A DNA stretch of 64,000 bases from Narcine bancroftii. Taxonomy: Eukaryota. Positions 1-54,441 of this stretch are shown piece by piece. The stretch is from positions 355,012,001-355,076,000 of the forward strand of contig NC_091471.1 in the NCBI RefSeq assembly GCF_036971445.1. Direction: 5' to 3'. Positions within the stretch are counted from its first letter, which is position 1. Each line of letters begins with the position of its first letter. The position numbers and the translations under genes are program-made. The notes beneath the pieces were generated by a model. The model saw only the letters and a list, made by a program, of their open reading frames with translations, did no database searches and had not been told where the DNA came from.

Positions 1-722
1 ACCAGGGCCTCGCGCTTGATGACGGAGAAGGGGAAGTGAGCGCTGACGGCGCCGGCCGCGTTGTGCGCGGTGCACGTATAGGTGCCGGCATCCTGCAGCT
101 GCGCGTTGTAGATGACGAGTTGCCCGATGTTGGTCACCACCATGTTGCCGTTGACGTGGTTGGGCCGCAGCACGACGTTCGGCCCGCCGCCCAGCTGCTT
201 CTCCCACGTGATGTCGGGCCGCGGGCGCCCGTTGACGTCGCAGAGGAAGCTGACGGTGCCGCCCACGTAGATGGACTGGTGCACGGGCGTGGTGAGGAGC
301 GCGGGGGCGAGCGCGCCGCCCCCGGCGGTGGTGGGCGCGCCCGCCGTAGTGGTGAGCGCGGTGGTGCGGGCGGGCGCGGCGGTGCTGAGGCCTCCGAAGC
401 GGTGGGTGCAGGTGACCACGGTGAGGGTGATGCCCTTCGTGCAGGCTTCGGCGTCCATGTAGCACTTGTTGTAGTAGGTGAGGCCGTCCGAAGCGCAGGT
501 GAAGTGCGGCTCCTTCTCGCAGCGGTCGCGGCACTTGCACACCGGCTGGCCGTCCCAGATGTCGCACTCGGAGCCCTGCTGGGCGCACGTGAAGCGCTCG
601 CAGCTGGCGCCGCGGGCCGCCACGGCCGCCCCTTTCATGCCCTTGGGCGCCACGTAGCGCGCCGCCACGCAGCTGCGGGAGCCGCACACGTTCGGGCAGC
701 ACTTCTCGAAGGTCTCGCAGTC
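1..722 (-). CDS. WFIKKN2: WFIKKN2 (GASP-1) coding exon 2, partial: rest of WAP, follistatin/Kazal and Ig domains; continues beyond window start
   Basis: AG acceptor at 724-723 (minus). Translation DCETFEKCCPNVCGSRSCVAARY...QQGSECDIWDGQPVCKCRDRCEKEPHFTCASDGLTYYNKCYMDAEAC...VGGTVSFLCDVNGRPRPDITWEKQ is in phase with exon 1. Neighbours ANKRD40/LUC7L3 support WFIKKN2 over WFIKKN1. Confidence 0.93.
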
Positions 723-812
723 CTGCGGGCGGGGAGGGAGGGAGGGAGGGGGGGGAACGGGAAAAGGTTGGTCGGCGGCGCGCACACCAAGCCGCGCGCC
801 GCGAGCCCCCTC

Positions 813-3331
813 CCACCACGCCAACCTCTGCCCGGGCCCCCTCCCGCCACGCCAACCTCTGCCCGGGCCCCCTCCCGCCACGCCGCCCTCTGCCCCCGTC
901 CTGCCCGGGCCCCCTCCTGCCACGCCGCCCTCTGCCCCCGTCCTGCCCGGGCCCCCTCCCGCCACGCCGCCCTCTGCCCCCGTCCTGCCCGGGCCCCCTC
1001 CTGCCACGCCGCCCTCTGCCCCCGTCCTGCCCTCTGCCCCCGTCCTGCCCGGGCCCCCTCCTGCCACGCCGCCCTCTGGCCCCGTCCTGCCCGGGCCCCC
1101 TCCCGCCACGCCGCCCTCTGCCCCCGTCCTGCCCGGGCCCCCTCCCGCCACGCCGCCCTCTGCCCCCGTCCTGCCCGGGCCCCCTCCCGCCACGCCGCCC
1201 TCGGGCCCCGTCCTGCCCGGGCCCCCTCCCGCCACGCCGCCCTCGGCCCCCGTCCTGCCCTCGGCCCCCGTCCTGCCCGGGCCCCCTCCTGCCACGCCGC
1301 CCTCTGCCCCCGTCCTGCCCGGGCCCCCTCCTGCCACGCCGCCCTCTGCCCCCGTCCTGCCCTCTGCCCCCGTCCTGCCCTCTGCCCCCGTCCTGCCCTC
1401 TGCCCCCGTCCTGCCCTCTGCCCCCGTCTGCCCGGGCCCCCTCCCGCCACGCCGCCCTCTGCCCCCGTCTGCCCGGGCCCCCTCCCGCCACGCCGCCCTC
1501 TGCCCCCGTCCTGCCCGGGCCCCCTCCCGCCACGCCGCCCTCGGCCCCCGTCCTGCCCGGGCCCCCTCCCGCCACGCCGCCCTCGGCCCCCGTCCTGCCC
1601 GGGCCCCCTCCCGCCACGCCGCCCTCGGCCCCCGTCCTGCCCGGGCCCCCTCCCGCCACGCCGCCCTCGGCCCCCGTCCTGCCCGGGCCCCCTCCCGCCA
1701 CGCCGCCCTCGGGCCCCGTCCTGCCCGGGCCCCGTCCTGCCCGGGCCCCGTCCTGCCCGGGCCCCCTCCCACCACGCCGCCCTCTGCCCCCGGGCCCCCT
1801 CCCGCCACGCCGCCCTCGGCCCCCGTCCTGCCCGGGCCCCCTCCCGCCACGCCGCCCTCGGCCCCCGTCCTGCCCGGGCCCCCTCCCGCCACGCCGCCCT
1901 CGGCCCCCGTCCTGCCCGGGCCACCTCCCGCCACGCCGCCCTCGGCCCCCGTCCTGCCCGGGCCCCCTCCCGCCACGCCGCCCTCGGGCCCCGTCCTGCC
2001 CGGGCCCCCTCCCGCCACGCCGCCCTCGGGCCCCCTCCCGCCACGCCGCCCTCGGGCCCCCTCCCGCCACGCCGCCCTCGGGCCCCCTCCCGCCACGCCG
2101 CCCTCGGGCCCCCTCCCGCCACGCCGCCCTCGGGCCCCCTCCCGCCACGCCGCCCTCGGGCCCCCTCCCGCCACGCCGCCCTCGGGCCCCCTCCCGCCAC
2201 GCCGCCCTCGGGCCCCCTCCCGCCACGCCGCCCTCGGGCCCCCTCCCGCCACGCCGCCCTCTGCCCCCGGGCCCCCTCCCGCCACGCCGCCCTCTGCCCC
2301 CGGGCCCCCTCCCGCCACGCCGCCCTCTGCCCCCGGGCCCCCTCCCGCCACGCCGCCCTCTGCCCCCGGGCCCCCTCCCGCCACGCCGCCCTCGGGCCCC
2401 GTCCTGCCCGGGCCCCGTCCTGCCCGGGCCCCGTCCTGCCCGGGCCCCGTCCTGCCCGGGCCCCGTCCTGCCCGGGCCCCGTCCTGCCCGGGCCCCGTCC
2501 TGCCCGGGCCCCGTCCTGCCCGGGCCCCGTCCTGCCCGGGCCCCGTCCTGCCCGGGCCCCCTCCCACCACGCCGCCCTCTGCCCCCGGGCCCCCTCCCGC
2601 CACGCCGCCCTCGGCCCCCGTCCTGCCCGGGCCCCCTCCCGCCACGCCGCCCTCGGCCCCCGTCCTGCCCGGGCCCCCTCCCGCCACGCCGCCCTCGGCC
2701 CCCGTCCTGCCCGGGCCACCTCCCGCCACGCCGCCCTCGGCCCCCGTCCTGCCCGGGCCCCCTCCCGCCACGCCGCCCTCGGGCCCCGTCCCGCCACGCC
2801 GCCCTCGGGCCCCGTCCTGCCCGGGCCCCGTCCTGCCCGGGCCCCGTCCTGCCCGGGCCCCGTCCTGCCCGGGCCCCGTCCTGCCCGGGCCCCGTCCTGC
2901 CCGGGCCCCGTCCTGCCCGGGCCCCGTCCTGCCCGGGCCCCGTCCTGCCCGGGCCCCGTCCTGCCCGGGCCCCGTCCTGCCCGGGCCCCGTCCTGCCCGG
3001 GCCCCGTCCTGCCCGGGCCCCGTCCTGCCCGGGCCCCGTCCTGCCCGGGCCCCGTCCTGCCCGGGCCCCGTCCTGCCCGGGCCCCGTCCTGCCCGGGCCC
3101 CGTCCTGCCCGGGCCCCGTCCTGCCCGGGCCCCGTCCTGCCCGGGCCCCGTCCTGCCCGGGCCCCGTCCTGCCCGGGCCCCGTCCTGCCCGGGCCCCGTC
3201 CTGCCCGGGCCCCCTCCCACCACGCCGCCCTCTGCCCCCGGGCCCCCTCCCGCCACGCCGCCCTCTGCCCCCGTCCTGCCCGGGCCCCCTCCCGCCACGC
3301 CACCCTCTGCCCCCGTCCTGCCCGGGCCCCC
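813..3331. repeat. GC-rich modular minisatellite (42-bp master unit with 16/18/26/33-bp derivative units) in the WFIKKN2 intron
   Basis: Repeated GCCCGGGCCCCCTCCCGCCACGCCGCCCTCTGCCCCCGTCCT and sub-units such as (GCCCGGGCCCCGTCCT)n at ~2810-3210; C-rich on the + strand. Confidence 0.97.
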
Positions 3332-4113
3332 GATGCGGAGAATTGTGAGCCACTTCCCACCGCCCCCGGTCGCTCCAACAGACCGGAACTATTCATACCT
3401 CGGACGGGTCTTCAGCTTCCCGAGCCACGGTCCACTCAGCCCGCACCCCACCCCCTTCTCTTCTCCACCGTGTCCCTCAGCCCCGAATACCACTGGCTCC
3501 CTGGTCCAGAGAAGTGTGGCCCCGGGACAATTCCTTCAACCCGTGGTGGGTGGGGGGGGGGGGGGGGGGGGAAATTGAGGCAGTACTCCCTCCCCAACCT
3601 GCCCGCTGGCTTCCTGCTCGGGCATCCGGTCCTCTGTCCGGGACGCTCTCGAGAAAGGATCCCTCTCGGGGCCGCAGCGACCGCTGAACTGCAGCCAAAC
3701 GCTGCCTCCCAGACCCCAGAGATCCCCTCTGCCCAGCGCATCTCTCTATCCCTGACTCCCCATTTGCCGATCATCCTAGATCCGGGTCCAGAGCCCGAAA
3801 GGCTCGGAGGCCGAGTAACCGGTCCCTCCGCACGATCCACGCTCCACCCGAGGTTCGTCGCCCATCGGGGCAGACAGAACCGGAGATCGTCCCTCCGCGC
3901 ACCCTGGCCGAAGCCCAATGGAAGCGGGCGGCGAAGAACACTTCCCATTCTCCGGAAACCTCCAATATTTGAAATAAGACCCTGGAACTCGGGGAAACCA
4001 CCCCAATATGCGAAGGGATTCCCCGCAGACGGGACCAAAGTTCTCCTCGTGTAAACACAGGCACCGCCGTCCCCCTGCGCGCGCGGTCTGAGGACATCCT
4101 CAGCGGTCGTTAC

Positions 4114-7440: not shown

Positions 7441-8548
7441 TTTGAACCTTTTAATGTCCAATAATGCCATTCTTAAACTGATTAACGCTACATCCTTTTG
7501 TGCACGGCATTGTCTGTTGCAATTTAAGGTGGTTCATAGAGCATATATGTCTAAAGTTAAACTGGCTTTTTTCCAGGCATAAATTTTTGATGTGACAAAT
7601 GTTAAACAAGTGATGCCTCACATGTTTTGGAACTGCTCTAAAGCTTAGAAAAAATTTGGAAGTGTTTCAAATTCTGGGTTATTTTTAAATTAAAATTGGA
7701 ACCTAACCCTTTAATAGCTCTTTTTGGAATTCCTCATGACAATGATGTTATTCTAACTTCAATGTTGCATTTTATCCTTTTCTTCGTTAATAACCAGATG
7801 TTCAATTTTCATTTAAATGGAAAGACAATATTTGATTATGGATCATATCACAGAACAACATGATCATATTAAAGAAGGGAATTTTACATGTGTTATTTGT
7901 ATAATTTTTGTATTCAATATTATTTTTTGGACATAGTACAAGTTGTGATTTAATTGTTTAATTATTATAATTATAGAAATTGATGTCTTGAACATGTTAT
8001 GTAATTATGGTTCTGCTTCTAATTTACAATTGATAAGTGATATGTATATATGATTTGATTTATGTTATTAGTTTACTATGTGTAAAGAGTTTTTGTTAAA
8101 CTCAATAAAAATATTTTAAAAAGAAAGGAAAGACAATATTTCACCTACACATGCACAATGGCTAAGGGATATATCTTGTTTAAACTTGGAAAAAAAATTT
8201 AGATAATGCTGTTATTGATTCAAATATCAAATTCCAAATGATATGTGCTCATTCATGGACTACTATCATAACTAAGAGTTAGTGTGGATTTGGAATTTTG
8301 GCACGGTGCTGTCTTTCTCCAAGATTATGCGACTTGAACTTTTTAAATGTCAACCTTACTTAGGGTAAGGGGTTTAGAATTCATCTTTTTTGTTAGGTTC
8401 AATTGTCTCATTATGTTTGTGCTATTGTACTTTTGAATTTCTACATATGATTATTATTGTAACTTTTTTACTAGTTCTGTAGCACATATAATTGCATTCC
8501 TTTTTAAAAAATTGAATAAATATTAATAAAAATATTTTTTTTAAAAAG
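7441..8548 (+). mobile_element. AT-rich, degraded L1-like 3' fragments interrupting the CR1
   Basis: AT-rich, ends in AATAAA plus an A/T tail. Residual ORF2 C-terminal-like HMFWNC motif at ~7620. CR1 sequence resumes at ~8549. Confidence 0.5.
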
Positions 8549-10199: not shown

Positions 10200-10503
10200 G
10201 GTATATTGGCCATAAATCAAAGTATTGAATATAGGAGTTGGGATGTTATGGTAAAGTTATATAAGATATTGGTGAGGCCAGATTTGGAGTATTGTATGCA
10301 GTTTTGGTCACCTAATGACAAGAAACATTAATATGATAGAAAGAATGCAGAGAAGAGTTACTAGGATGTTGCCCAGACTTCAAGAATTGAGATACAGGGA
10401 AAGGAAAAACAGGTTAGAACATTATTCCCAGGAGCGTAGAAGAATGAGGGGAGATTTGTCAGTGGAATTTAAAATTATGAGGGGTATAGACAGAGTAAAT
10501 GAA
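10200..10503 (+). mobile_element. CR1 3' fragment; its last 194 bp (10310-10503) are duplicated at 12342-12535
   Basis: LYKILVRPDLEYCMQFWSP...ERMQRRVTRMLP...RRRMRGDL, the CR1 ORF2 C-terminal signature. Confidence 0.85.
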
Positions 10504-11570
10504 ATATGCATTCCGGCTATGAATATCTTCATCAGGGCTCCCCCCATGTACCCACAGCCTCAAACGCCCTGCATACAAGGCAGAGGCCAGGGCCTCCTGA
10601 CGAATATAATGTTCCTAATCCCAACAATTCCTCAGGGGTTAAATATACATTACCCCCTCCTTGCTCCCAAACATGCAGGAGCCAGGCTGCCAGAGTTTCT
10701 CCCACCTTTTGCCTAAATCGATCTCCAGTGGTAGCGAGCTCTTTTATAGAGAAGTCACGGATCATTGACGGCTCTTGACCTCTGCTCCCACTTTGGCCCA
10801 CAGGATCCTTTGCCCAGTGGACGGGAGGAGGCCTAGGCCATCCCATAGAGTATAAGCAAGGGTTCGGGTATTTTCCCCTGGGTCCGCTTGGGAGATCGGG
10901 CTATCTATCCCTTCAATCTCTTCCCTTACATCTGTTAGGGAAGTCTGCTGCCTCATGGGGCGGGCGTGAACAGCAGGTGGAGCAGGCAGTATGTTAGGCA
11001 CATGCTTAGGAGTATCTGCATTATTACCATGGTCTTTCCAGATATTCCCGTCCCATTCATCAATTAAATCAGGATTGTCGCCATTCCTTATCATGGCACG
11101 AATACGATGTGGATCGGGTTCTACTCCATGCCTTTCTTTATCTGTACAGAGCTGCAGCCGGAGTTTAATATTACGGCAGATCATTTGGACATGCTTATCC
11201 TCCCATTCTTTGACTCGGTCCTGACTGGTGTAAACAATCTCACTCATCATGGAACAGCGTTGTTGCAGGGCCTCTACCTCCTCCTCTAGTTGCTCTCTCT
11301 TATGCTGAGATTCTACTTCTCACTGAACTGATTCTGCTTCACGCTGAACAGAGTGGCGTAAGGCTGTGGCCAGCAGCTAAAAACCATCCGTCAGCGTCCA
11401 CTTTTTAAACTGGAAATTTACTTTCTCGAAGGAGAGTGGCAACCCGCTCTCCCAGAGGCGCACTTGATGGATCTAACTTCTCATCCCAACTGAGGGGTGG
11501 TCCCAACAAAGACAGGATATTGGCCAACATGCCAAATCCATTGTCTTTGGAAATCCATCCCGGAATCAAG
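10504..11570 (-). pseudogene. Disrupted retroviral gag (ORF pieces 11405-11665, 10762-11250, 10532-10846)
   Basis: Coiled coil followed by the WDGNIW motif and the FRQKxGE...WLLxxWxxG motif, as in ERV-L/ERV-S Gag; stops and frameshifts lie between the pieces. Confidence 0.72.
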
Positions 11571-11618
11571 AACTGCTCAGGACTCACCTCATTCTTTCGG
11601 CGAAACTTCTTGAGACCA

Positions 11619-11636
11619 ATCCTGCTGACTACGCCA
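11619..11636 (-). promoter_or_regulatory. Retroviral primer-binding site, tRNA-Ser
   Basis: Minus strand TGGCGTAGTCAGCAGGAT, 2 nt after the LTR CA end. Complementary (1 mismatch) to the vertebrate tRNA-Ser 3' end ...ATCCTGCCGACTACGCCA. Confidence 0.85.
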
Positions 11637-11638
11637 GT

Positions 11639-12341
11639 TGTCTTGGGTAAACTTGTACCTCTCACTTTGTTCGTTTTAGATTGGCCACAGTGTTCAAGCT
11701 ACCGAAATAAAATAGACACACACACCAAGAGCAGTTCAGTTTATACAAGTCTTTATTACTAAATCTAAAGCTGAATTCACACTACAATATGCAAGCCCTT
11801 CCCAATTATACTTATCAATGGCTGGACTGGTCCCAACTGCCAAAGCGAGGCGACGACTGCACACTTGTAGTAGGTTGTCTGGGCACCGGTAGCAGCTTCT
11901 CCACCTCCCCGGACCGGGACATCGGTTTGGAATCTTGAAGTTCTTCTTGCTGAGAGATGTTGCCACCTCTTGGAGAGTCTCAAACTTCAGCAGTGGGACC
12001 ATGGCTTATATTACCCAAAAGTTTACTTCAGATCTTATCTCTTTGAACAAATGATTTAATTATCTTCAAAGTCTCCTGACAGTCTGCAACCAACAAAAGA
12101 CAACTGCATCTCTTGGCCTCATGGTGGAAGTTGGATAATGTCTACTGATTCATATGCATCCCTGGGCCCCATAGTGTAAATTTAGATAATGTCTTCCTAT
12201 TCAACTGCATCCTGGGCCCCATAGTGGAATTTAGGTGTGTCTACTAAATATGCATCTTGGGCCTCATAGTGGAATTGAGATTATGTCTTCTGATGCAACG
12301 GCATCCCTTCTTTCACAAGCTAGTCTAAATCCTCCATTACA
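11639..12341 (-). repeat. 5' LTR (703 bp) with U3 tandem repeats, TATA and poly(A) signal
   Basis: Starts TGTAATGG and ends AAGACA on minus. About four ~50-bp repeats at 12101-12305; TATAA at ~12010; AATAAA at 11757-11752. Confidence 0.8.
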
Positions 12342-12780
12342 ACCTAATGACAAGAAACATTAATATGATAGAAAGAATGCAGAGAAGAGTTACTAGGATG
12401 TTGCCCAGACTTCAAGAATTGAGATACAGGGAAAGAAAAAACAGGTTAGAACATTATTCCCAGGAGCATAGAAGAATGAGGGGAGATATGATAGTGGAAT
12501 TTAAAATTATGAGGGGTATAGACAGAGTAAATGAAGGTAGGTTTTTCCCACTGAGGATAGGTGAGATACAAACCAGAGGACATGGGTAAAGGGGAAAAGT
12601 TTAGGGGGAACGTTCACTGAGAGTGTGAAACAAGCTGTCTAAGAAGAATTTGGATAGGTACATGGATGGGAACAGAATGGAGGGTTATGGACTGGGTGCA
12701 GGTCAATTTGGATTCGGCAGAATAATAGTTTGGCACAAACTAGAAGGGCCCGTGTTGCAGTGTTCTGTGGTTCTAATGGT
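12342..12780 (+). mobile_element. CR1 3' end (second copy of the duplicated segment, continuing into the 3' UTR)
   Basis: MTRNINMIERMQRR...FFPLRIGEIQTRGHG, then a CR1-type tail ending ...GTGTTCTGTGGTTCTA. Confidence 0.85.
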
Positions 12781-17939: not shown

Positions 17940-20294
17940 GGGTGAACTCCAGCCCTCTCCAGAAAAGTCGGGAAAAACAAAGGAAAACACAAAGGCACAG
18001 AAATAAAAGTTACAGAAAAGTGAGTATAAAGGTGGAAAGAAGATGGCGACAAAAAAAGAAAAATCGAAAGCAACGGTAAGAAGAGAGGAAGAGAAGACAA
18101 AGGAGGAAAAAGGTGAAGGCCTTACCTGTCCGAAGAGGCCCGCTGCGGAGAGAGAAACCCGCTCCCTCAGGTCGGTAAATAATGGACTACAAAAATGGCT
18201 CGCAGAGCCGAGTAAAAGTGCGCGATGCGAATGAAAAAAAACACACCGACGGGAGGGGGGACCAGCTGGGGAGTCGATCTCCACAGCCGGCAACGACAGC
18301 TGCAGAACACCTGCAGCAAGAAGAGACCACAGAAGACAATAGAAACAAGAAAGAAGAGGAGGAAAGTGCACCAAAGAAACAACAGATGGTCAACCCAGAG
18401 GAAGAGGAAGAGTACAGTGAAATAGAAGAAGAAAAGAAAGGCAAGGTAAAGGATATACTTGCTCTTATTAAAGGATACATGGAGTCATTTAAAGAATGGC
18501 AAACACAGGAATTTAAGGATTTAAGAAAAAGAATAAACAACACAGAAGAGAAAATAAATAAAATGGAGATGACCTTAACAGAAATGGGAAAGAAAATGGA
18601 CAAGATGGAAGAGCGGGCAGTAGCAGCAGAAATGGAGGTAGAAGACTTAAAAAAGAAATTGGAGAAATCTAATAAAAAAACTAAAGAGACACAAGAACTA
18701 CTAGCTCAAAAAATAGATTCAATGGAAAACCATAACAGAAGAAATAACATAAAGATAGTGGGCCTTAAGGAAGATGAAGAAGGCAAGAATATGAGGGAGT
18801 TTATAAAAGAGTGGATCCCTAAGACCCTAGGATGTCCAGAACTACAGCAAGAAATGGAAATAGAAAGGGCACATAGAGTATTGGCCTCTAAACCACAACC
18901 ACAACAAAAACCAAGATCTATTGTAGTAAAATTCCTAAGATACACTACAAGAGAAAAGGTACTGGAGAAGACAATGGAAAAAATAAGAGAGGGCAACAAA
19001 CCACTGGAGTATAAAGGGCAAAAAATCTTCATTTATCCAGATATAAGTTTTGAACTCCTAAAGAAGAGAAAAGAGTTCAATACAGCAAAGGCGATTTTAT
19101 GGAAGAAAGGGTATAAATTTATACTAAAGCATCCAGCGGTATTGAAAATATTTATTCCAGGACAACAAAACAGACTATTCTCGGATCCAGAAGAAGCACG
19201 AAAATTTGCAGAACAATTACAAAAATAGACTGAGGGAGGAAGACGGGTAATGAGAGTTAAAATGATCACGATTGATATGTATGTGGGTAAAGACAAAAAT
19301 AGACTGAGGGATGAAGACGGGTAATGAGAGTAAAAATGATCACGATTGATATGTATGCGGGTAAAGAGGTATAAGAGTGAATAGAGACAATGAGCATACA
19401 TGAATGTATCTGTACTTAGAGGAAAATATAGATAGTATAGACAAGAATTAATAAGGGAAGGTAATGGAATAGAGAGAATAAGGAGGGAATTAAAAGAGTG
19501 ACCTTTGTGACATATGAAAAGTGAAATCTTTTCTGGGGGAGGCGGGGTGGGGGGAAATAGCGGTCACTGCAAAATCAGTTGACGCTTGCGAGTGGATTCG
19601 CAAATCCAAATGGAGAGGGGAGATGTGGTTGTCCGACAAGGGATAAAGGACAACTCAGGAGGCGAAGGGAAGATTGGGGATAAATAAGATAGAAATAGGA
19701 GAATAAGGAAAATGTTGGATGTTGTAGGAATGTTGTCTTATAAAGAGTTGAAAATAAGAAAACAGAAATGGAAAAGGAGGAAAGGTAATGATGGAAAAAC
19801 GGAAAGAGAAGATAAACAAAATATAAAAGGGCTACGCTGAACTATATGTCTTTAAATATTAATGGATACATAACCAAATTAAAAGGAAGAAACTACTAAA
19901 TTTAAATGAATAAATGTATTCCATTAGAAAAAATAACATATAGGTTAAGAAATAATATTGAAATATTCGAACAAGTATAGGAGCCTTACATTAAATACAA
20001 TAGCGAAAACCTACCGGGGACAAACATTACCTAAGTTGATGGAAGGAGAAGGAAAGAAAAGAATGGACTCAGTAGAATTTCTGGTGTAATTTTGTTGAAT
20101 GACAACATTGTCTGACTGGCTTAATGCAACCTAGATTGTATACCTAAAATGGATGAGAGGGGGGGGGGTGGGGGGGTGGTTTGGGAGGAAAGGTGGGGGG
20201 GGAGAAAAAGTCACTGTATATGTGTGAAAAAGAAATAGTGTATATCATGGCTAATGTGATTTAAGGTGTGAAAAATAAAAAATTTAATAAAAAA
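17940..20294 (+). mobile_element. ORF1-only (HAL1-like) internally deleted L1, 2.35 kb, with poly(A) and 16-bp TSD
   Basis: TSD AAACTACTAGGTTCAC at 17924-17939 and 20295-20310. Near-identical to the element at 48693-54639 but lacks ~3.58 kb of ORF2 (junction ~19903). Confidence 0.93.
18043..19228 (+). pseudogene. L1 ORF1 (coiled coil, RRM, CTD); frameshifted near 18222, with a 348-aa downstream ORF 18182-19228 still open
   Basis: ENHNRRNNIKIVGLKE, IERAHR, PRSIVVKFL, IFIYPDIS and PAVLKI motifs; a 32-bp deletion relative to the sister copy. Confidence 0.88.
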
Positions 20295-48679: not shown

Positions 48680-48827
48680 ACTCTGTCGGTCAAGAGGAGT
48701 CACGTGATGGAGTAGTGGCCGGACAGTGAACTCCAGCCCTCTCCAGAAAAGTCGGGAAAAACAAAGGAAAACACAAAGGCACAGAAATAAAAGTGAAAAA
48801 AAAAGTGAGTATAAAGGTGGAAAGAAG

Positions 48828-50061
48828 ATGGCGACAAAAAAAGAAAAATCGAAAGCAACGGTAAGAAGAGAGGAAGAGAAGACAACGGAGGAAAAAGGTG
48901 AAGGCCTTACCTGTTCGAAGAGGCCCGCAGTGGAGAGAGAAACCCGCTCCCTCAGGTCGGTAGATAATGGACTACAAAAATGGCTCGCTGAGCCGAGAAA
49001 AAGTGCGCAACCGCGCATGCGTGAAGAGTCGCGCATGCGCGATGCGCATGAAAAAAAACACACCGACGGGAGGGGGGACCAGCTGGGGAGTCGATCTCCA
49101 CAGCCGGCAACGACAGCTGCAGAACACCTGCAGCAAGAAGAGACCACAGAAGACAATGGAAACAAGAAAGAAGAGAAGGAAAGGGCAACAAAGAAACAAC
49201 AGATGGCCAACCCAGAGGAGGAAGAAGAAGAGGAAGAGGAAGAGTACAGTGAAATGGAAGAAGAAGAGAAAGGCAAGATAAAGGAGGTACTTTCTCTTAT
49301 TAAAGGATACATGGAGTCATTTAAAGAATGGCAAACACAGGAATTTAATGATTTAAGAAAAAGAATAAACAACACAGAAGAGAAAATGAATAAAATAGAT
49401 ATGACCTTAACAGAAATGGGAAAGAAAATGGACAAGATGGAAGAGCGGGCAGTAGCAGCAGAAATGGAGGTAGAAGACTTAAAAAAGAAATTGGAGGAAT
49501 CTAATAAAAAAGCGATAGAGACACAAGAACTGTTAGCTCAAAAAAATAGATATAATGGAAAATTATAACAGAAGAAATAACATAAAGATAGTGGGCCTTA
49601 AGGAAGATGAAGAAGGCAAGAATATGAGGGAGTTTATAAAAGATTGGATCCCTAAGACCCTAGGATGTCCAGAACTACAGCAAGAAATGGAAATAGAAAG
49701 GGCACATAGAGCATTGGCCTCTAAACCACAACCACAACAAAAACCAAGATCTATTGTAGTAAAATTCCTAAGATATACTATAAGAGAAAAGGTACTGGAG
49801 AAGACAATGGAAAAAGTAAGAGAGGGCAACGAACCACTGGAGTATAAAGGGCAAAAAATCTTCATTTATCCAGATATAAGTTTTGAACTCCTAAAGAAGA
49901 GAAAAGAGTTCAATACAGCAAAGGCGATTTTATGGAAGAAAGGGTATAAATTTATACTAAAGCACCCAGCGGTATTGAAAATATTTATTCCAGGACAACA
50001 AAACAGACTATTTTCGGACCCAGAAGAAGCACGAAAATTTGCAGAACAATTACAAAAATAG
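48828..50061 (+). pseudogene. L1 ORF1 (~410 aa once corrected), split by a +1 A in a homopolymer at 49540-49546
   Basis: The two ORF-track pieces (48726-49568 and 49555-50061) join if A7 is read as A6, as in the sister copy at ~18708. Confidence 0.88.
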
Positions 50062-50586
50062 ACTGAGGGATGAAGACGGGTAATGAGAGTAAAAATGATC
50101 ACGATTGATATGTATGTGGGTAAAGAGGTATAAGAGTGAATAGATAAAATGTGCATATGTGAAGGTATCTGTACTTAGAGGAAAATATAGATAGTATAGA
50201 TAAGAATGAATAAGGGAAGGAAATGGAATAGAGAGAATAAGGAGGGAATTAAAAGAGTGACCTTTGTTACATATGAAAAGTGAAATCTTTTCTGGGGAGG
50301 GCTGGGTGGGGAGAAATAGCGGTCACTGCAAAATCAGTTGACGCTTGCGAGTGAATTCGCAAACCCAAATGGAGAGGGGAGATGTGGTTGTTCGACAAGG
50401 GATAAAGGACAACTCAGGAGGGGAAGGGGAGATTGGGGATAAAGAAGATATAAATAGAAGAATAAGGAAAATGTTGGATGTTGTAGGAATGTTGTCTTAT
50501 AAAGAGTTGAAAATAAGAAAACAGAAATGAAAAAGGAGGAAAGGTAATGATGGAAAAACGGAAGGAGAAGATAAACAAAGTATAAA

Positions 50587-53500
50587 ATGGCTACGCTGAA
50601 CTATATGACTTTAAATATTAATGGAATACATAACCAAATTAAAAGGAAGAAACTACTAAATTTACTGAAAAAGGAAAAAATTGATATAGCATTTGTCCAA
50701 GAAACACACTTAACTGAATTGGAGCACAAGAAATTAAAGAGAGATTGGGTAGGACATGTAACAGCAGCATCGTATAATTCAAAAGCAAGAGGAGTGGCTA
50801 TATTAATTAGTAAAAATGTGCCATTTAAAATAGAAGAGGAAATAATAGATCCAGCAGGGAGATATGTTATGATAAAATGTCAGATATATTCGGAGTTTTG
50901 GAATCTACTTAATGTATATTCACCTAACGAAGAAGATCAAAAGTTTATGCAAGATATCTTTTTGAAGGTGGCTAATACGCAAGGGAACATACTAATAGGA
51001 GGGGATTTCAACCTGAATTTGGATCCAAATATGGATAAAACGGGGAAAAAAATTAACAGGAAGAACAAAGTAACCAAATTTATAATTAAATCAATGCAAG
51101 AAATGAAACTTTTGGATATATGGAGGAAACAAAACCCAAAAGAAAAGGAATACTCATACTACTCGGCTAGACATAAAACATACTCAAGAATAGACCTATT
51201 TTTGTTATCAGCTAGTATGCAGGATAGAGTAAGAAAAACAGAATATAAAGCGAGAATACTATCGGACCATTCACCCTTAATATTGACAGTAAAGCTGGAG
51301 GACATCCCTCCAAGAATGTATAGATGGAGATTAAACCCCATGCTACTTAAAAGACAGGATTTTAGAGAATTTATTGAAAAACAATTAAAAATGTATTTTG
51401 AAGTAAATACGGAATCAGTGGAAGATAAGTTTATACTATGGGACACAATGAAAGCATTCATTAGAGGGCAAATAATAAGCTATGTAACCAAGATGAAGAA
51501 GGACTGTAATCAGGAAACAGAGCAGTTGGAAAGGGAAATAGTAAACATAGAAAAAAAATTAGCAATAAAGGAAGATACAACTAAAAGAGAATTGGCGGAT
51601 AAAAAAATAAAATATGAAACATTACAAACATATAAGGTAGAGAAGAATATAATGAAGACAAAACAGAAATATGAACTAGGGGAAAAAACGCACAAAATCC
51701 TAGCATGGCAGTTTAAGACAGAACAAGCTAAGAAAATGGTATTGGCATCAAGGAAAAAAGACAAACAAATTACATATAATCCAAAAGAAATTAAGGAAAA
51801 CTTTAGAGAATTCTATGAACAATTATACCGAACTGAAAATGAAGGGAAAGAAGGGAAAATAGAGGAATTTTTGACTAAAATTGAACTACCAAAACTACAA
51901 ATAGAGGAACAAAATAAATTAACAGAACCATTTGGAATAGTAGAAATACAAGAGATAATAAAAAAATTACCAAATAATAAGACACCAGGAGAGGATGGAT
52001 TTCCAATAGAATTCTACAAAACATTTAAAGACTTATTAATACCGCCCCTCCTGGATGTAATCAACCAGATTGATGAAACACAAAGCTTACCAGATTCATG
52101 TAAAACAGCAATAATTACAGTAATACTAAAACAAGGGAAAGATCCACTCTTACCAGCGTCATATAGACCAATATCTTTGCTAAACACAGACTATAAGATA
52201 ATAGCTAAACTATTAGCAAACAGATTAGCAGAACAGGTACCAAAAATGGTAAATTTAGACCAAACTGGATTTATCAAAAAAAGGCGCACAACAGACAATA
52301 TTTGTAAATTTATTAACTTAATTCATGCAGTAGAAGGAAATGAAGCACCTGCAGTAGCAGTTGCTTTAGATGCAGAGAAGGCCTTCGACAGAGTAGAATG
52401 GAATTATTTGTTCAAAGTATTGCAAAAATTCGGTTTACCGGAGAAGTATATTAATTGGATTAAAGCATTATATAAGGGACCGTTAGTGAAAGTGACAGTA
52501 AATGGACATGTATCAAAGCAATTTAACTTAAGCAGGTCAACGCGGCAGGGATGCCCACTATCACCTTTATTGTTTGCGCTAGCTATAGAACCACTAGCAG
52601 AATTGATAAGAATAGATAATAATATAAAAGGAATAAAAATAAAAGACAGGGAATATAAAATCAGTTTATTTGCGGATGATGTTATAGTGTACTTAACAGA
52701 ACCAGAACTATCAATAAAAGAATTATATAAGAAATTGAAGGAATATGGAGAAGTGTCGGGATACAAGATAAACGTAAATAAAAGTGAAGCAATGCCTATG
52801 AATAACGCAGATTTCTCAAAATTTAAGAAGGAATCTCCATTCAGGTGGCAAATGCAGGCAATAAGATACCTAGGTGTACAAATAAACAAAAATCTAGGCC
52901 AATTATATAAACTCAATTATAATCCACTAATGAAAAAATTACAGGACGATTTAGAGCATTGGAAAGATCAACCACTAACACTGATAGGAAGGATAAACTG
53001 TATTAAAATGAACATTTTTCCAAGGATATTATACTTATTTCAGGCATTGCCAATACAACTGACAGAAAAATTCTTCAAAGAGTTAAAGAAAATAATAAGG
53101 AAATTTTTATGGAGAGGGGGGAAACCGAGGATAGCACTAGATAAATTAACAGAATGGTATAAACAAGGAGGCTTACAATTGCCAAACTTTAAAAATTATT
53201 ATAGAGCCGCACAATTAAGATACCTATCAGATTTTTATCAAACAAGGGAAAAACCAAACTGGACGAGATTGGAATTAGATAAAATAGGGGAAAAGATACC
53301 TGAACACATATTATATAAATGGGACGAAAAATTGGTACAACATAGAACTTCTCCAGTATTACATCATCTCCTCAATATTTGGAAGAAGATCCATGTAGAA
53401 AGAAATAAAACAAATTATCAATTACCAAAACTAATATTGACGCAAAATAAGCTACTCCCTTTTACAATAGACAACCTTTCCTTTAGAGAATGGGAAAAAA

Positions 53501-54441
53501 AAGGGATTAAAAGAATAGAAAATTGTTTTTCAGGAAGTAGATTCTTATCCTTTGAACAAATGAGAGATAAGTACAATACAACTGGAGATACAGTGCTGGC
53601 ATATTACCAACTGAGATCCTACTTGAAGGATAAATTAGGAAGCAATTTGAGTTTACCAGAGGGAAGTAACCTTGAATATGTGATTACAGATACAATGTTA
53701 ATCAAAAGATTTATAACAAATATGTATATTAAACTGCAAGAAAAGGAGAATGAGGAAACAAATGGTAAAACTAAACAAAAATGGGAACAAGATTTAAATA
53801 TAAAGATAAAAAAGGAAACATGGGAGAAATTATGTTCTGGAACGATGAGAAATACAATAAATACGAGGCTACGTATGATACAATATAATTGGTTACACAG
53901 ACTATACATTACACCGCAAAAGTTAAATAAATGGGACCCAACAGTATCTGATAGATGTTTTCGATGTAAAAAAGAAATGGGAACAACAATTCATGCAATC
54001 TGGACATGTGAGAGAGTAAAAAAATTTTGGGATGATCTCAATCAGATATTAAATAAAATAACAGAAAACAATATACCAAAGAATCCAGAGATCTTTCTCC
54101 TAAGTAACATAAAAAACAAAGAATTTGGAATTGATTTGGAGGATGCACAAAAAAGATTTGTTAAGATAGCCCTAGCCGTAGCAAAAACATGTATTATGTC
54201 AACCTGGAAATTGGAAGATAATTTGAAAATACAACAATGGTATATAGAAATGAATAAATATATTCCAGTAGAAAAAATAACATATAGTTTAAGAAATAAT
54301 ATTGAAATATTCGAACAAGTATGGGAGCCTTACATTAAATACAATAGCGAAAACCTACCGGAACAAACATTACCTAAGTTGATGGAAGGAGAAGAGAAGA
54401 AAAGAATGGACTCAGTAGAATTTCTGGTGTATTTTTGTTGA
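50587..54441 (+). CDS. L1 ORF2 protein, 1284 aa: APE endonuclease, reverse transcriptase, C-terminal Cys/His knuckle
   Basis: TLNING, VQETH, GGDFN, SRID, SDH; PGEDG, YRPISLLN, LDAEKAFD, RQGCPLSP, FADD, YLG; CFRCKKEMGTTIHAIWTC. Open reading frame throughout. Confidence 0.95.
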   Translation: MATLNYMTLNINGIHNQIKRKKLLNLLKKEKIDIAFVQETHLTELEHKKLKRDWVGHVTAASYNSKARGVAILISKNVPFKIEEEIIDPAGRYVMIKCQIYSEFWNLLNVYSPNEEDQKFMQDIFLKVANTQGNILIGGDFNLNLDPNMDKTGKKINRKNKVTKFIIKSMQEMKLLDIWRKQNPKEKEYSYYSARHKTYSRIDLFLLSASMQDRVRKTEYKARILSDHSPLILTVKLEDIPPRMYRWRLNPMLLKRQDFREFIEKQLKMYFEVNTESVEDKFILWDTMKAFIRGQIISYVTKMKKDCNQETEQLEREIVNIEKKLAIKEDTTKRELADKKIKYETLQTYKVEKNIMKTKQKYELGEKTHKILAWQFKTEQAKKMVLASRKKDKQITYNPKEIKENFREFYEQLYRTENEGKEGKIEEFLTKIELPKLQIEEQNKLTEPFGIVEIQEIIKKLPNNKTPGEDGFPIEFYKTFKDLLIPPLLDVINQIDETQSLPDSCKTAIITVILKQGKDPLLPASYRPISLLNTDYKIIAKLLANRLAEQVPKMVNLDQTGFIKKRRTTDNICKFINLIHAVEGNEAPAVAVALDAEKAFDRVEWNYLFKVLQKFGLPEKYINWIKALYKGPLVKVTVNGHVSKQFNLSRSTRQGCPLSPLLFALAIEPLAELIRIDNNIKGIKIKDREYKISLFADDVIVYLTEPELSIKELYKKLKEYGEVSGYKINVNKSEAMPMNNADFSKFKKESPFRWQMQAIRYLGVQINKNLGQLYKLNYNPLMKKLQDDLEHWKDQPLTLIGRINCIKMNIFPRILYLFQALPIQLTEKFFKELKKIIRKFLWRGGKPRIALDKLTEWYKQGGLQLPNFKNYYRAAQLRYLSDFYQTREKPNWTRLELDKIGEKIPEHILYKWDEKLVQHRTSPVLHHLLNIWKKIHVERNKTNYQLPKLILTQNKLLPFTIDNLSFREWEKKGIKRIENCFSGSRFLSFEQMRDKYNTTGDTVLAYYQLRSYLKDKLGSNLSLPEGSNLEYVITDTMLIKRFITNMYIKLQEKENEETNGKTKQKWEQDLNIKIKKETWEKLCSGTMRNTINTRLRMIQYNWLHRLYITPQKLNKWDPTVSDRCFRCKKEMGTTIHAIWTCERVKKFWDDLNQILNKITENNIPKNPEIFLLSNIKNKEFGIDLEDAQKRFVKIALAVAKTCIMSTWKLEDNLKIQQWYIEMNKYIPVEKITYSLRNNIEIFEQVWEPYIKYNSENLPEQTLPKLMEGEEKKRMDSVEFLVYFC

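What the first reader, a model, noticed from the sequence alone, without database searches (positions are those of the whole stretch)
10504..12341. Class III (ERV-L/ERV-S-like) endogenous retrovirus primed by tRNA-Ser in a probable cartilaginous-fish genome
Seen: a 703-bp TG..CA LTR, an 18-nt PBS matching the tRNA-Ser 3' end (1 mismatch), a strong GAG|GTGAGT donor ~30 nt further on, and gag remnants with WDGNIW and FRQKVGETLAAWLLHVWEQGG. Established: these resemble the WDPxTWDGDIW and Q.PGE...W.LR.WD.G motifs of ERV-L/ERV-S Gag, and ERV-S uses tRNA-Ser. Inference: these lineages are best known from tetrapods, so this could be a little-described deep-branching family. No pol is present here, so the class assignment rests on Gag motifs and the PBS.
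Basis: partly seen in the sequence, partly recalled or inferred. Interest (0 to 1): 0.72.

Follow-up and report, generated by a model that had tools for sequence, protein, structure and literature searches.

The report
Electric-ray class III retrovirus, broken copy
This is the broken front half of one copy of a large endogenous retrovirus family in an electric ray, related to mouse ERV-L and frog XtERV-S; younger copies elsewhere in the genome still have all three genes open, and their envelope gene likely borrows the gag start codon by splicing.

Summary
In detail: on the minus strand a 703-bp TGT..ACA LTR, an 18-nt tRNA-Ser PBS, a donor 31 nt on, and a broken gag that ends at 10504. It is one dead, 3'-truncated copy of a large family (1,618 candidate loci). 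Long relatives read gag-TGA-pro-pol-env, have 5-bp target duplications, a gamma-type Env and no dUTPase. Their RT groups with stingray relatives inside the clade holding mouse ERV-L-like Pol; class I is rejected (p-AU 3.7e-5). So class III is right, but 'tetrapod lineage' and 'deep-branching' are not: clade III is already reported as the commonest ERV type in cartilaginous fish, and XtERV-S has nearly the same build. I found no paper on this family; Dfam/Repbase were not searchable.

The parts
11639..12341 (-). 5' LTR, 703 bp, TGT...ACA; four ~50-nt repeats in U3; TATAA at about 12010 and AATAAA at about 11757 (roles predicted)
11619..11636 (-). Primer-binding site for tRNA-Ser(AGA), 2 nt after the LTR
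10504..11608 (-). 5' two thirds of an ERV-L/Fv1-type gag, begun 10 nt after the PBS; start codon lost, one stop, two frameshifts, ~166-nt internal deletion near 10606, broken off at 10504
11582..11590 (-). Splice donor GAG|GTGAGT after gag codon 7, phase 0; in long copies the likely partner of the acceptor in front of the env signal stretch (inferred)
11038..11055 (-). WDGNIW motif, shared with stingray Gag (WDGDIW)
10655..10717 (-). MHR-like capsid motif
10310..10503 (+). Copy 1 of a 194-bp duplicated host stretch (decayed LINE, CR1-like by recalled resemblance), joined to the broken gag end
12342..12535 (+). Copy 2 of the 194-bp stretch, abutting the intact LTR end

Best explanation
The window holds a dead, 3'-truncated copy (LTR, tRNA-Ser primer site, broken gag) of a large class III endogenous retrovirus family of an electric ray, likely inserted by a one-ended integration that duplicated 194 bp of host DNA, and the complete virus likely made its envelope protein by splicing the first seven gag codons onto an env frame that has no start of its own. 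Shown: family anatomy LTR-PBS-gag-TGA-pro-pol-env-PPT-LTR, 5-bp target duplications, ERV-L-type RT and Gag, gamma-type Env, no dUTPase, several tRNA-Ser primers, purifying selection on env between subfamilies. Inferred: Pol made by readthrough of the TGA; spread by reinfection; the gag-to-env splice (about 80%); one-ended integration of this copy, with integrase joining the intact U3 end and host repair joining the broken end (about 60%).
For: Family: 39 other copies 85-93% identical over the gag part among 40 scored of 1,618 candidates; 3,032 LTR candidates. 4 of 20 fetched older copies span 7.6-7.8 kb with two LTRs and carry RVP, RVT_1, tether, RNase H, rve and TLV_coat pieces in retroviral order. 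Class: bit scores; careful RT+tether tree of 35 rows puts the family with two stingray Pols (98/92) inside a 100/99 clade with the mouse ERV-L-like Pol; grouping with class I rejected, p-AU 3.7e-5; gypsy-type rows fall outside in a 66-row quick tree. 13 of 30 best LTR loci are solo LTRs with exact 5-bp duplications, 2 more with one mismatch. Env splice: gag ATG 10 nt after the PBS in 17 of 20 older copies, donor after codon 7 in 20 of 20; a pyrimidine-rich CAG acceptor sits directly before a hydrophobic stretch (mean hydropathy 2.8-2.9) in phase 0; no in-frame ATG before it in 12 of 12 older copies where the site was found (8 of 20 not found) and 14 of 15 copies with open env; in an open env frame the first Met is residue 178, after the signal stretch and the CWxC motif. 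Two NCBI host-gene models switch from host to element sequence exactly at that acceptor (132 of 132 and 130 of 132 residues). dN/dS between subfamilies 0.11-0.29, env 0.26-0.29; control between two old env copies 0.96. Duplication: copies 97.4% alike versus at most 87% for 39 other repeat copies, and the empty site is collinear with those copies; it starts exactly at the LTR's TG; 2 of 15 other testable copies show an intact 5' end, a broken 3' end and 78- or 216-bp duplications; XMRV precedent of a 273-bp duplication at a defective end (PMC2857682, passages).
Against: The gag-env joint was not seen directly: no spliced DNA copy matched an exact probe. One copy with open env and 16 of 16 young deleted copies do have in-frame ATGs before the acceptor, and the stingray Env model starts with its own Met, so the borrowing is not universal. 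The host-gene junctions are gene models whose read support I could not check. No HERV-S, XtERV-S, SnRV or foamy sequence was in the tree; 'MuERV-L' is my label for an unnamed mouse cluster. The old-gag control gave dN/dS 0.49, so that control is not cleanly neutral. The 194-bp duplication fits later repair equally well.
Confidence: 0.85

Rival explanations
1. The copy integrated normally with a 5-bp duplication; later a break inside it was repaired from the empty allele, which copied 194 bp of flank and was end-joined to gag.
For: Predicts the same X-A-[gag..LTR]-A-B layout; the window copy also has a private internal deletion; one of the two similar copies shows microhomology at the joint.
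Against: The two copies differ by 2.6%, like LTR pairs of the older subfamily (K2P 0.017-0.064 in 12 copies), so it happened near insertion time; a direct precedent exists for uncoordinated integration (PMC2857682).
Confidence: 0.35
2. Env is made from its own start (a non-AUG codon, leaky scanning or another upstream exon) and the gag donor serves something else.
For: In-frame ATGs before the acceptor exist in the young deleted subfamily and one open-env copy; XtERV-S env has its own start and a donor in the LTR (PMC8278194).
Against: Phases of donor and acceptor match, the seven gag codons are basic and would complete a signal peptide, and 14 of 15 open env frames have no ATG before the signal stretch.
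Confidence: 0.2
3. The family is an early-branching lineage that has descended with cartilaginous fish since their origin.
For: Electric-ray and stingray Pols form one clade (98/92); a basal position is not rejected (p-AU 0.21).
Against: In the best tree bird lineages branch deeper and the ray clade is nested; RT is 52-58% identical to amphibian, killifish and lungfish relatives; PMC6001957 reports that cartilaginous-fish retroviruses are not basal in any major clade.
Confidence: 0.15
4. It is a Gypsy retrotransposon or a class I ERV.
For: The Env is gamma-type; Ser primers occur in some Gypsy elements (recalled).
Against: Two RNase H domains, env, RT scores and trees, AU test, no Gag_p30 match.
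Confidence: 0.01

Closest known systems
XtERV-S of Xenopus tropicalis (PMC8278194; parts 1-4 of 8 and Table S2 read)
   Same: About 8 kb; 705-bp versus 703-bp LTR with TGT/ACA ends; tRNA-Ser PBS; 5-bp duplication; ERV-L-type Gag without Cys-His box, with PSAP; in-frame TGA between gag and pol; DTG, YIDD, H-X4-H-X28-C-X2-C; gamma-type TM with QNR..LD and CX6CC; CWxC in SU; deleted subfamilies with a replaced 5' half of the LTR.
   Different: No dUTPase here; leader 10 nt versus 158 nt; donor inside gag versus in the LTR; env mostly without its own start; CWxC about 140 residues into SU versus position 40; thousands of loci versus about 160; D-X57-D versus D-X58-D by my count.
ERV-S / HERV-S (as described in PMC8278194; no sequence compared)
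   Same: Class III, env-associated, no dUTPase; Ser primer (recalled).
   Different: Degenerate mammalian elements; membership not tested for lack of a reference sequence.
ERV-L / MuERV-L and Fv1
   Same: RT 51% identical to the mouse multi-copy Pol; Gag nearest to Fv1 cluster; 5-bp duplication.
   Different: ERV-L has dUTPase, no env and a Leu primer.
Avian sarcoma-leukosis viruses (recalled; search found no paper holding all terms)
   Same: Env translated from the gag AUG through a donor a few codons into gag.
   Different: Class II virus; six codons rather than seven; frameshift expression of Pol.
Mouse IAP 1-delta-1 (PMC6466679, passages)
   Same: Model for the young 5.6-kb derivative: non-autonomous, deleted yet in frame, highly amplified.
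   Different: One deletion in a class II element versus five here, plus an in-frame mini-env.
Elephant-shark CmiERV lineage I (PMC4422223, part 1 of 2) and clade Huo (PMC6001957, parts 1-2 of 5)
   Same: Class III-side retroviruses in cartilaginous fish.
   Different: CmiERV I is SnRV-like; no direct comparison was possible.

Membership tests
Endogenous retrovirus (Retroviridae-derived) | LTR-PBS-gag-pro-pol-env-PPT-LTR with tether plus RNase H, integrase after RT, short target duplication | tested here: met
   (in relatives; the window holds only the 5' part)
Class III ERV, ERV-L/ERV-S-like | RT clusters with ERV-L, apart from class I, class II and Gypsy | tested here: met
   mouse reference identified by inference
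Class III ERV, ERV-L/ERV-S-like | YIDD centre, Fv1/ERV-L-type Gag without Cys-His box, TGT/ACA ends, 5-bp duplication | tested here: met
ERV-L proper | dUTPase after the integrase core | tested here: not met
   HMM of relatives' dUTPase plus C-terminus hits only the last ~50 positions in 12 of 20 copies (those that reach the region), while two controls score 117 and 240 bits
ERV-L proper | No env; tRNA-Leu primer | tested here: not met
   TLV_coat env and Ser PBS
XtERV-S group | Class III gag-pol with gamma-type env and Ser PBS | tested here: met
XtERV-S group | dUTPase in pol; env with its own start | tested here: not met
XtERV-S group or ERV-S | Monophyly with XtERV-S or HERV-S in an RT tree | not testable with these tools
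   No named XtERV-S or HERV-S protein was returned
SnRV-like or foamy-like ERV | RT clusters with SnRV or spumaviruses | tested here: inconclusive
   Foamy RTs score 113-129 bits versus 350-470 for ERV-L-like relatives; no SnRV reference
Invading ERV (ERVi of PMC10435555), for the young subfamily | [quoted passage not shown] | tested here: met
   7 of 15 copies fetched for open env frames
Invading ERV (ERVi of PMC10435555), for the young subfamily | Identical LTRs | tested here: inconclusive
   0-5 mismatches in 767-989 aligned bases among those 7; the pair without mismatch has one gap
Invading ERV (ERVi of PMC10435555), for the young subfamily | Insertional polymorphism in the population | not testable with these tools
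   Only contigs of few samples are served

The most novel reading that the evidence does not exclude
This family is a class III retrovirus with a working envelope that is still invading a ray genome, the first such case in cartilaginous fish; its Env depends on the gag start codon as in avian alpharetroviruses, it switches among three tRNA-Ser primers, and it is parasitised by a young deleted derivative that keeps its reading frames open through five deletions because translation in cis favours its spread.
Probability: 0.4. Interest if true: 0.72.

Novelty: new member of a known kind. Interest (0 to 1): 0.5.

Why it matters
The window's copy is an ordinary fossil with an unusual scar. The family matters more. 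Intact class III viruses with an envelope are rare (XtERV-S was described as unusual for this), no infectious ERV-L/ERV-S-type virus is described in the papers I read, and a survey of 2,004 genomes found no invading ERV in 13 cartilaginous fishes (PMC10435555, supplement row). A young, env-selected family in a ray shows this virus type was recently infectious there and gives natural material for how such viruses express Env, change primer tRNA and spawn non-autonomous derivatives. Its env acceptor also appears to trap host transcripts.

Tried and rejected
IMG/VR scan with the RT: no match. Pfam finds no family for Gag beyond a sub-threshold DUF5535; PDB sequence search of Gag: 0 hits; single-sequence Gag fold was poor (pLDDT 45, pTM 0.24) and was not searched. 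Retrotrans_gag search for an own-genome Gypsy outgroup found nothing and its control did not ring; gypsy-type rows came instead. The 66-row careful tree did not finish; the quick tree is cited only for the outgroups; three rows were dropped there for short RT cover. No RNA holder on record was listed; four runs guessed to be RNA cover the whole element as contigs, but the predicted gag-env joint was not among the 15 joints shown of 42, which is no evidence either way. DNA contigs were too short to bridge the window's junctions. An exact probe for spliced DNA copies found 0. An early idea that the gag start overlaps the PBS was wrong. Among 16 young deleted copies 41 synonymous versus 105 non-synonymous changes give no sign of selection on amino acids. 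Paper searches returned unrelated papers; one search returned none; PMC190236 (SnRV) is not held; PMC2717909 and PMC9967133 passages did not address the env start. One search was a script error, redone.

Full report
Observation. The PBS has one mismatch to two tRNA-Ser(AGA) genes of this genome and none to a third. The gag has lost its start codon and has a stop, two frameshifts and a ~166-nt deletion, and it stops at 10504. Nothing else of the family lies in the window.

The family. The internal part finds 1,618 candidate loci and the LTR 3,032; of 40 scored each, the others are 85-93% and 90-97% identical. Of 20 older copies fetched with 10 kb, 4 span 7.6-7.8 kb with two LTRs and 8 more have two LTRs around internal deletions; LTR pairs differ by K2P 0.017-0.064. 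Natural open stretches match protease, RT, tether, RNase H, integrase and TLV_coat in that order. Gag and pol share a frame, separated by TGA in most copies. Env has CWxC, a furin site, QNRMALD and CX6CC. There is no dUTPase. Of the 30 best LTR loci, 13 are solo LTRs with exact 5-bp duplications and 2 have one mismatch; the rest are followed by a PBS or have incomplete ends. A protein that NCBI labels Narcine bancroftii matches G000 at 100%, so the host is an electric ray.

Class. The RT-tether frame scores 469 bits against a stingray Pol (59%), 390-450 against amphibian, killifish and lungfish Pols, 391 against a 753-member mouse Pol cluster with dUTPase that I read as MuERV-L, 141 against MLV-type, 129 foamy, 86 Ty3 and 62 or less class II RTs. 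In a careful tree of 35 rows the family joins two stingray Pols (98/92) inside a 100/99 clade with the mouse and chicken ERV-L-like Pols; class I is rejected (p-AU 3.7e-5), and a basal place for the ray clade is not found but not rejected (0.21). Gag is labelled Fv1-like by NCBI and by the Atlas (0.94, 147 shared features; a lead). No named HERV-S, XtERV-S or SnRV sequence could be had.

Primer use. Among the 20 older copies 3 match tRNA-Ser(AGA) exactly, 1 with two mismatches, 11 carry a 19-nt form that looks like a hybrid, and 5 are of the CGA/TGA type. Young copies match tRNA-Ser(TGA) or tRNA-Ser(CGA) genes of this genome. The family has therefore used three Ser isoacceptors.

How Env is likely made. 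Gag starts 10 nt after the PBS (ATG in 17 of 20), and the donor follows codon 7 in phase 0 (20 of 20). Just past the pol stop a pyrimidine-rich CAG precedes a hydrophobic stretch, also in phase 0. No in-frame ATG precedes it in 12 of 12 older copies where the site was found (8 not found) or in 14 of 15 copies with open env; in an open frame the first Met is residue 178. The seven gag codons are basic and would form the front of a signal peptide. Two NCBI models of host genes change to element sequence exactly at this acceptor. Against: the joint itself was not observed; 16 of 16 young deleted copies and one open-env copy have ATGs there; the stingray Env model has its own Met. The parallel with avian sarcoma-leukosis viruses is recalled, not read (one search found no paper).

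How this copy came to be. It is flanked by 194 bp of host repeat on both sides, 189 of 194 alike, starting exactly at the LTR's TG. Other copies of that repeat are at most 87% alike and are collinear with the empty site, so the duplication is local. There is no microhomology at the broken end. Two of 15 other testable copies have an intact 5' end, a broken 3' end and duplications of 78 and 216 bp. One of 15 XMRV integrations had a 273-bp duplication at a defective end (PMC2857682, passages). One-ended integration is my preferred reading (about 60%); later repair from the empty allele gives the same layout. With no rate for this ray, 2.6% divergence means about 6 Myr at 2.2e-9 or 60 Myr at the 2.2e-10 assumed in PMC4422223.

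Recent activity. A search with an Env relative found many open env frames. Of 15 such copies fetched, 7 keep gag (597 aa), pol (1,043) and env (518) open; their LTR pairs differ at 0-5 of 767-989 bases, 6 have matched 5-bp duplications, and two share one, so they are at most 6 insertions. Between subfamilies dN/dS is 0.11-0.29, env 0.26-0.29, against 0.96 between two old env copies and 0.49 between two old gag copies: env was under purifying selection, which points to spread by infection. A second young form (5.6 kb; 135 scored of 2,033 candidates, 134 without a stop in the matched part) has five deletions, removing the capsid motif, two parts of RT, a linker and most of env, yet keeps the frames: a 150-codon mini-env in 16 of 16 and one 1,216-codon gag-pol frame in 4 of 16; LTRs are identical in 8 of 16. 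Four gag-pol deletions in frame would be about 1% by chance, but amino acids are not conserved among copies. IAP 1-delta-1 is the model (PMC6466679, passages).

Comparison and novelty. XtERV-S is nearly the same build (PMC8278194, parts 1-4 of 8 and Table S2, which lists no cartilaginous fish); ERV-S shares the lack of dUTPase. Clade III RTs outnumber clade I in six cartilaginous-fish genomes (2,843 versus 2,018; PMC11089739, passages), six cartilaginous fish carry gamma-type env ERVs (bioRxiv 2021.11.23.469661, passages; supplements closed and may list relatives), and such viruses are not basal (PMC6001957, parts 1-2). PMC10435555 (section 6, passages, supplement rows) found no invading ERV in 13 cartilaginous fishes and Narcine and Hemitrygon do not occur in the files searched. 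Searches showed no paper on this family; Dfam and Repbase could not be searched. The scan's own index gave no note on this sequence.

Verdict. A real, dead fragment of an apparently undescribed member of the env-bearing ERV-L/ERV-S-like group. The class call was right and the surprise claimed for the host was overstated. The interest lies in the family's youth, its likely gag-dependent Env start and its in-frame deleted derivative. Interest 0.5.

Noticed in passing
G000, group L125-L139 (aggregate): A young subfamily of the same virus: 7 of 15 copies chosen for open env keep gag, pol and env open, with near-identical LTR pairs and 5-bp duplications.
   Followed up: yes
G000, group L097-L124: A very young 5.6-kb non-autonomous derivative, 98-100% alike between copies, with five deletions that keep the frames open, a 150-codon mini-env (signal stretch plus membrane anchor) and a replaced 5' half of the LTR; at least 135 copies.
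   Followed up: partly
P0301 and P0304 (NCBI models of an NKAIN3-like gene and HSPBAP1): Both models end in the derivative's mini-env, entered exactly at the env splice acceptor: likely exon trapping of host transcripts.
   Followed up: partly
L021-L040, L109-L139, primer sites: The family uses three tRNA-Ser isoacceptors and a common 19-nt hybrid-looking PBS (11 of 20 older copies).
   Followed up: partly
L029 and L034 (oriented ends near 7644 and 4919): Two more copies with a broken 3' end and 78- and 216-bp flank duplications.
   Followed up: yes
P0004, P0080-P0091 (Hemitrygon akajei models): The red stingray carries a related multi-copy family, also without dUTPase, whose Env model has its own start codon.
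   Followed up: partly
G000-wide, L079-L096: A large class I ERV load: 3,521 Gag_p30 candidates, many with long open frames.
   Followed up: no
window 50575-54441 (+), with related pieces at 17942-20293 and 48726-50351: A LINE with an unbroken 1,288-codon endonuclease-RT frame, and a 95-97% identical shorter copy about 30.8 kb upstream.
   Followed up: partly
window 600-3400: GC-rich (73-88%) tandem array with 16- and 42-nt units, giving long spurious open frames.
   Followed up: no
P0133 (unnamed database protein, 1,374 aa): An ERV-L-like Pol that also carries thymidylate kinase, thymidine kinase and dUTPase domains; could be a fusion artefact or a retrovirus with captured nucleotide enzymes.
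   Followed up: no
L073-L077: Five loci share the same LTR, flank and PBS: segmental duplicates or duplicated assembly pieces of one insertion.
   Followed up: no
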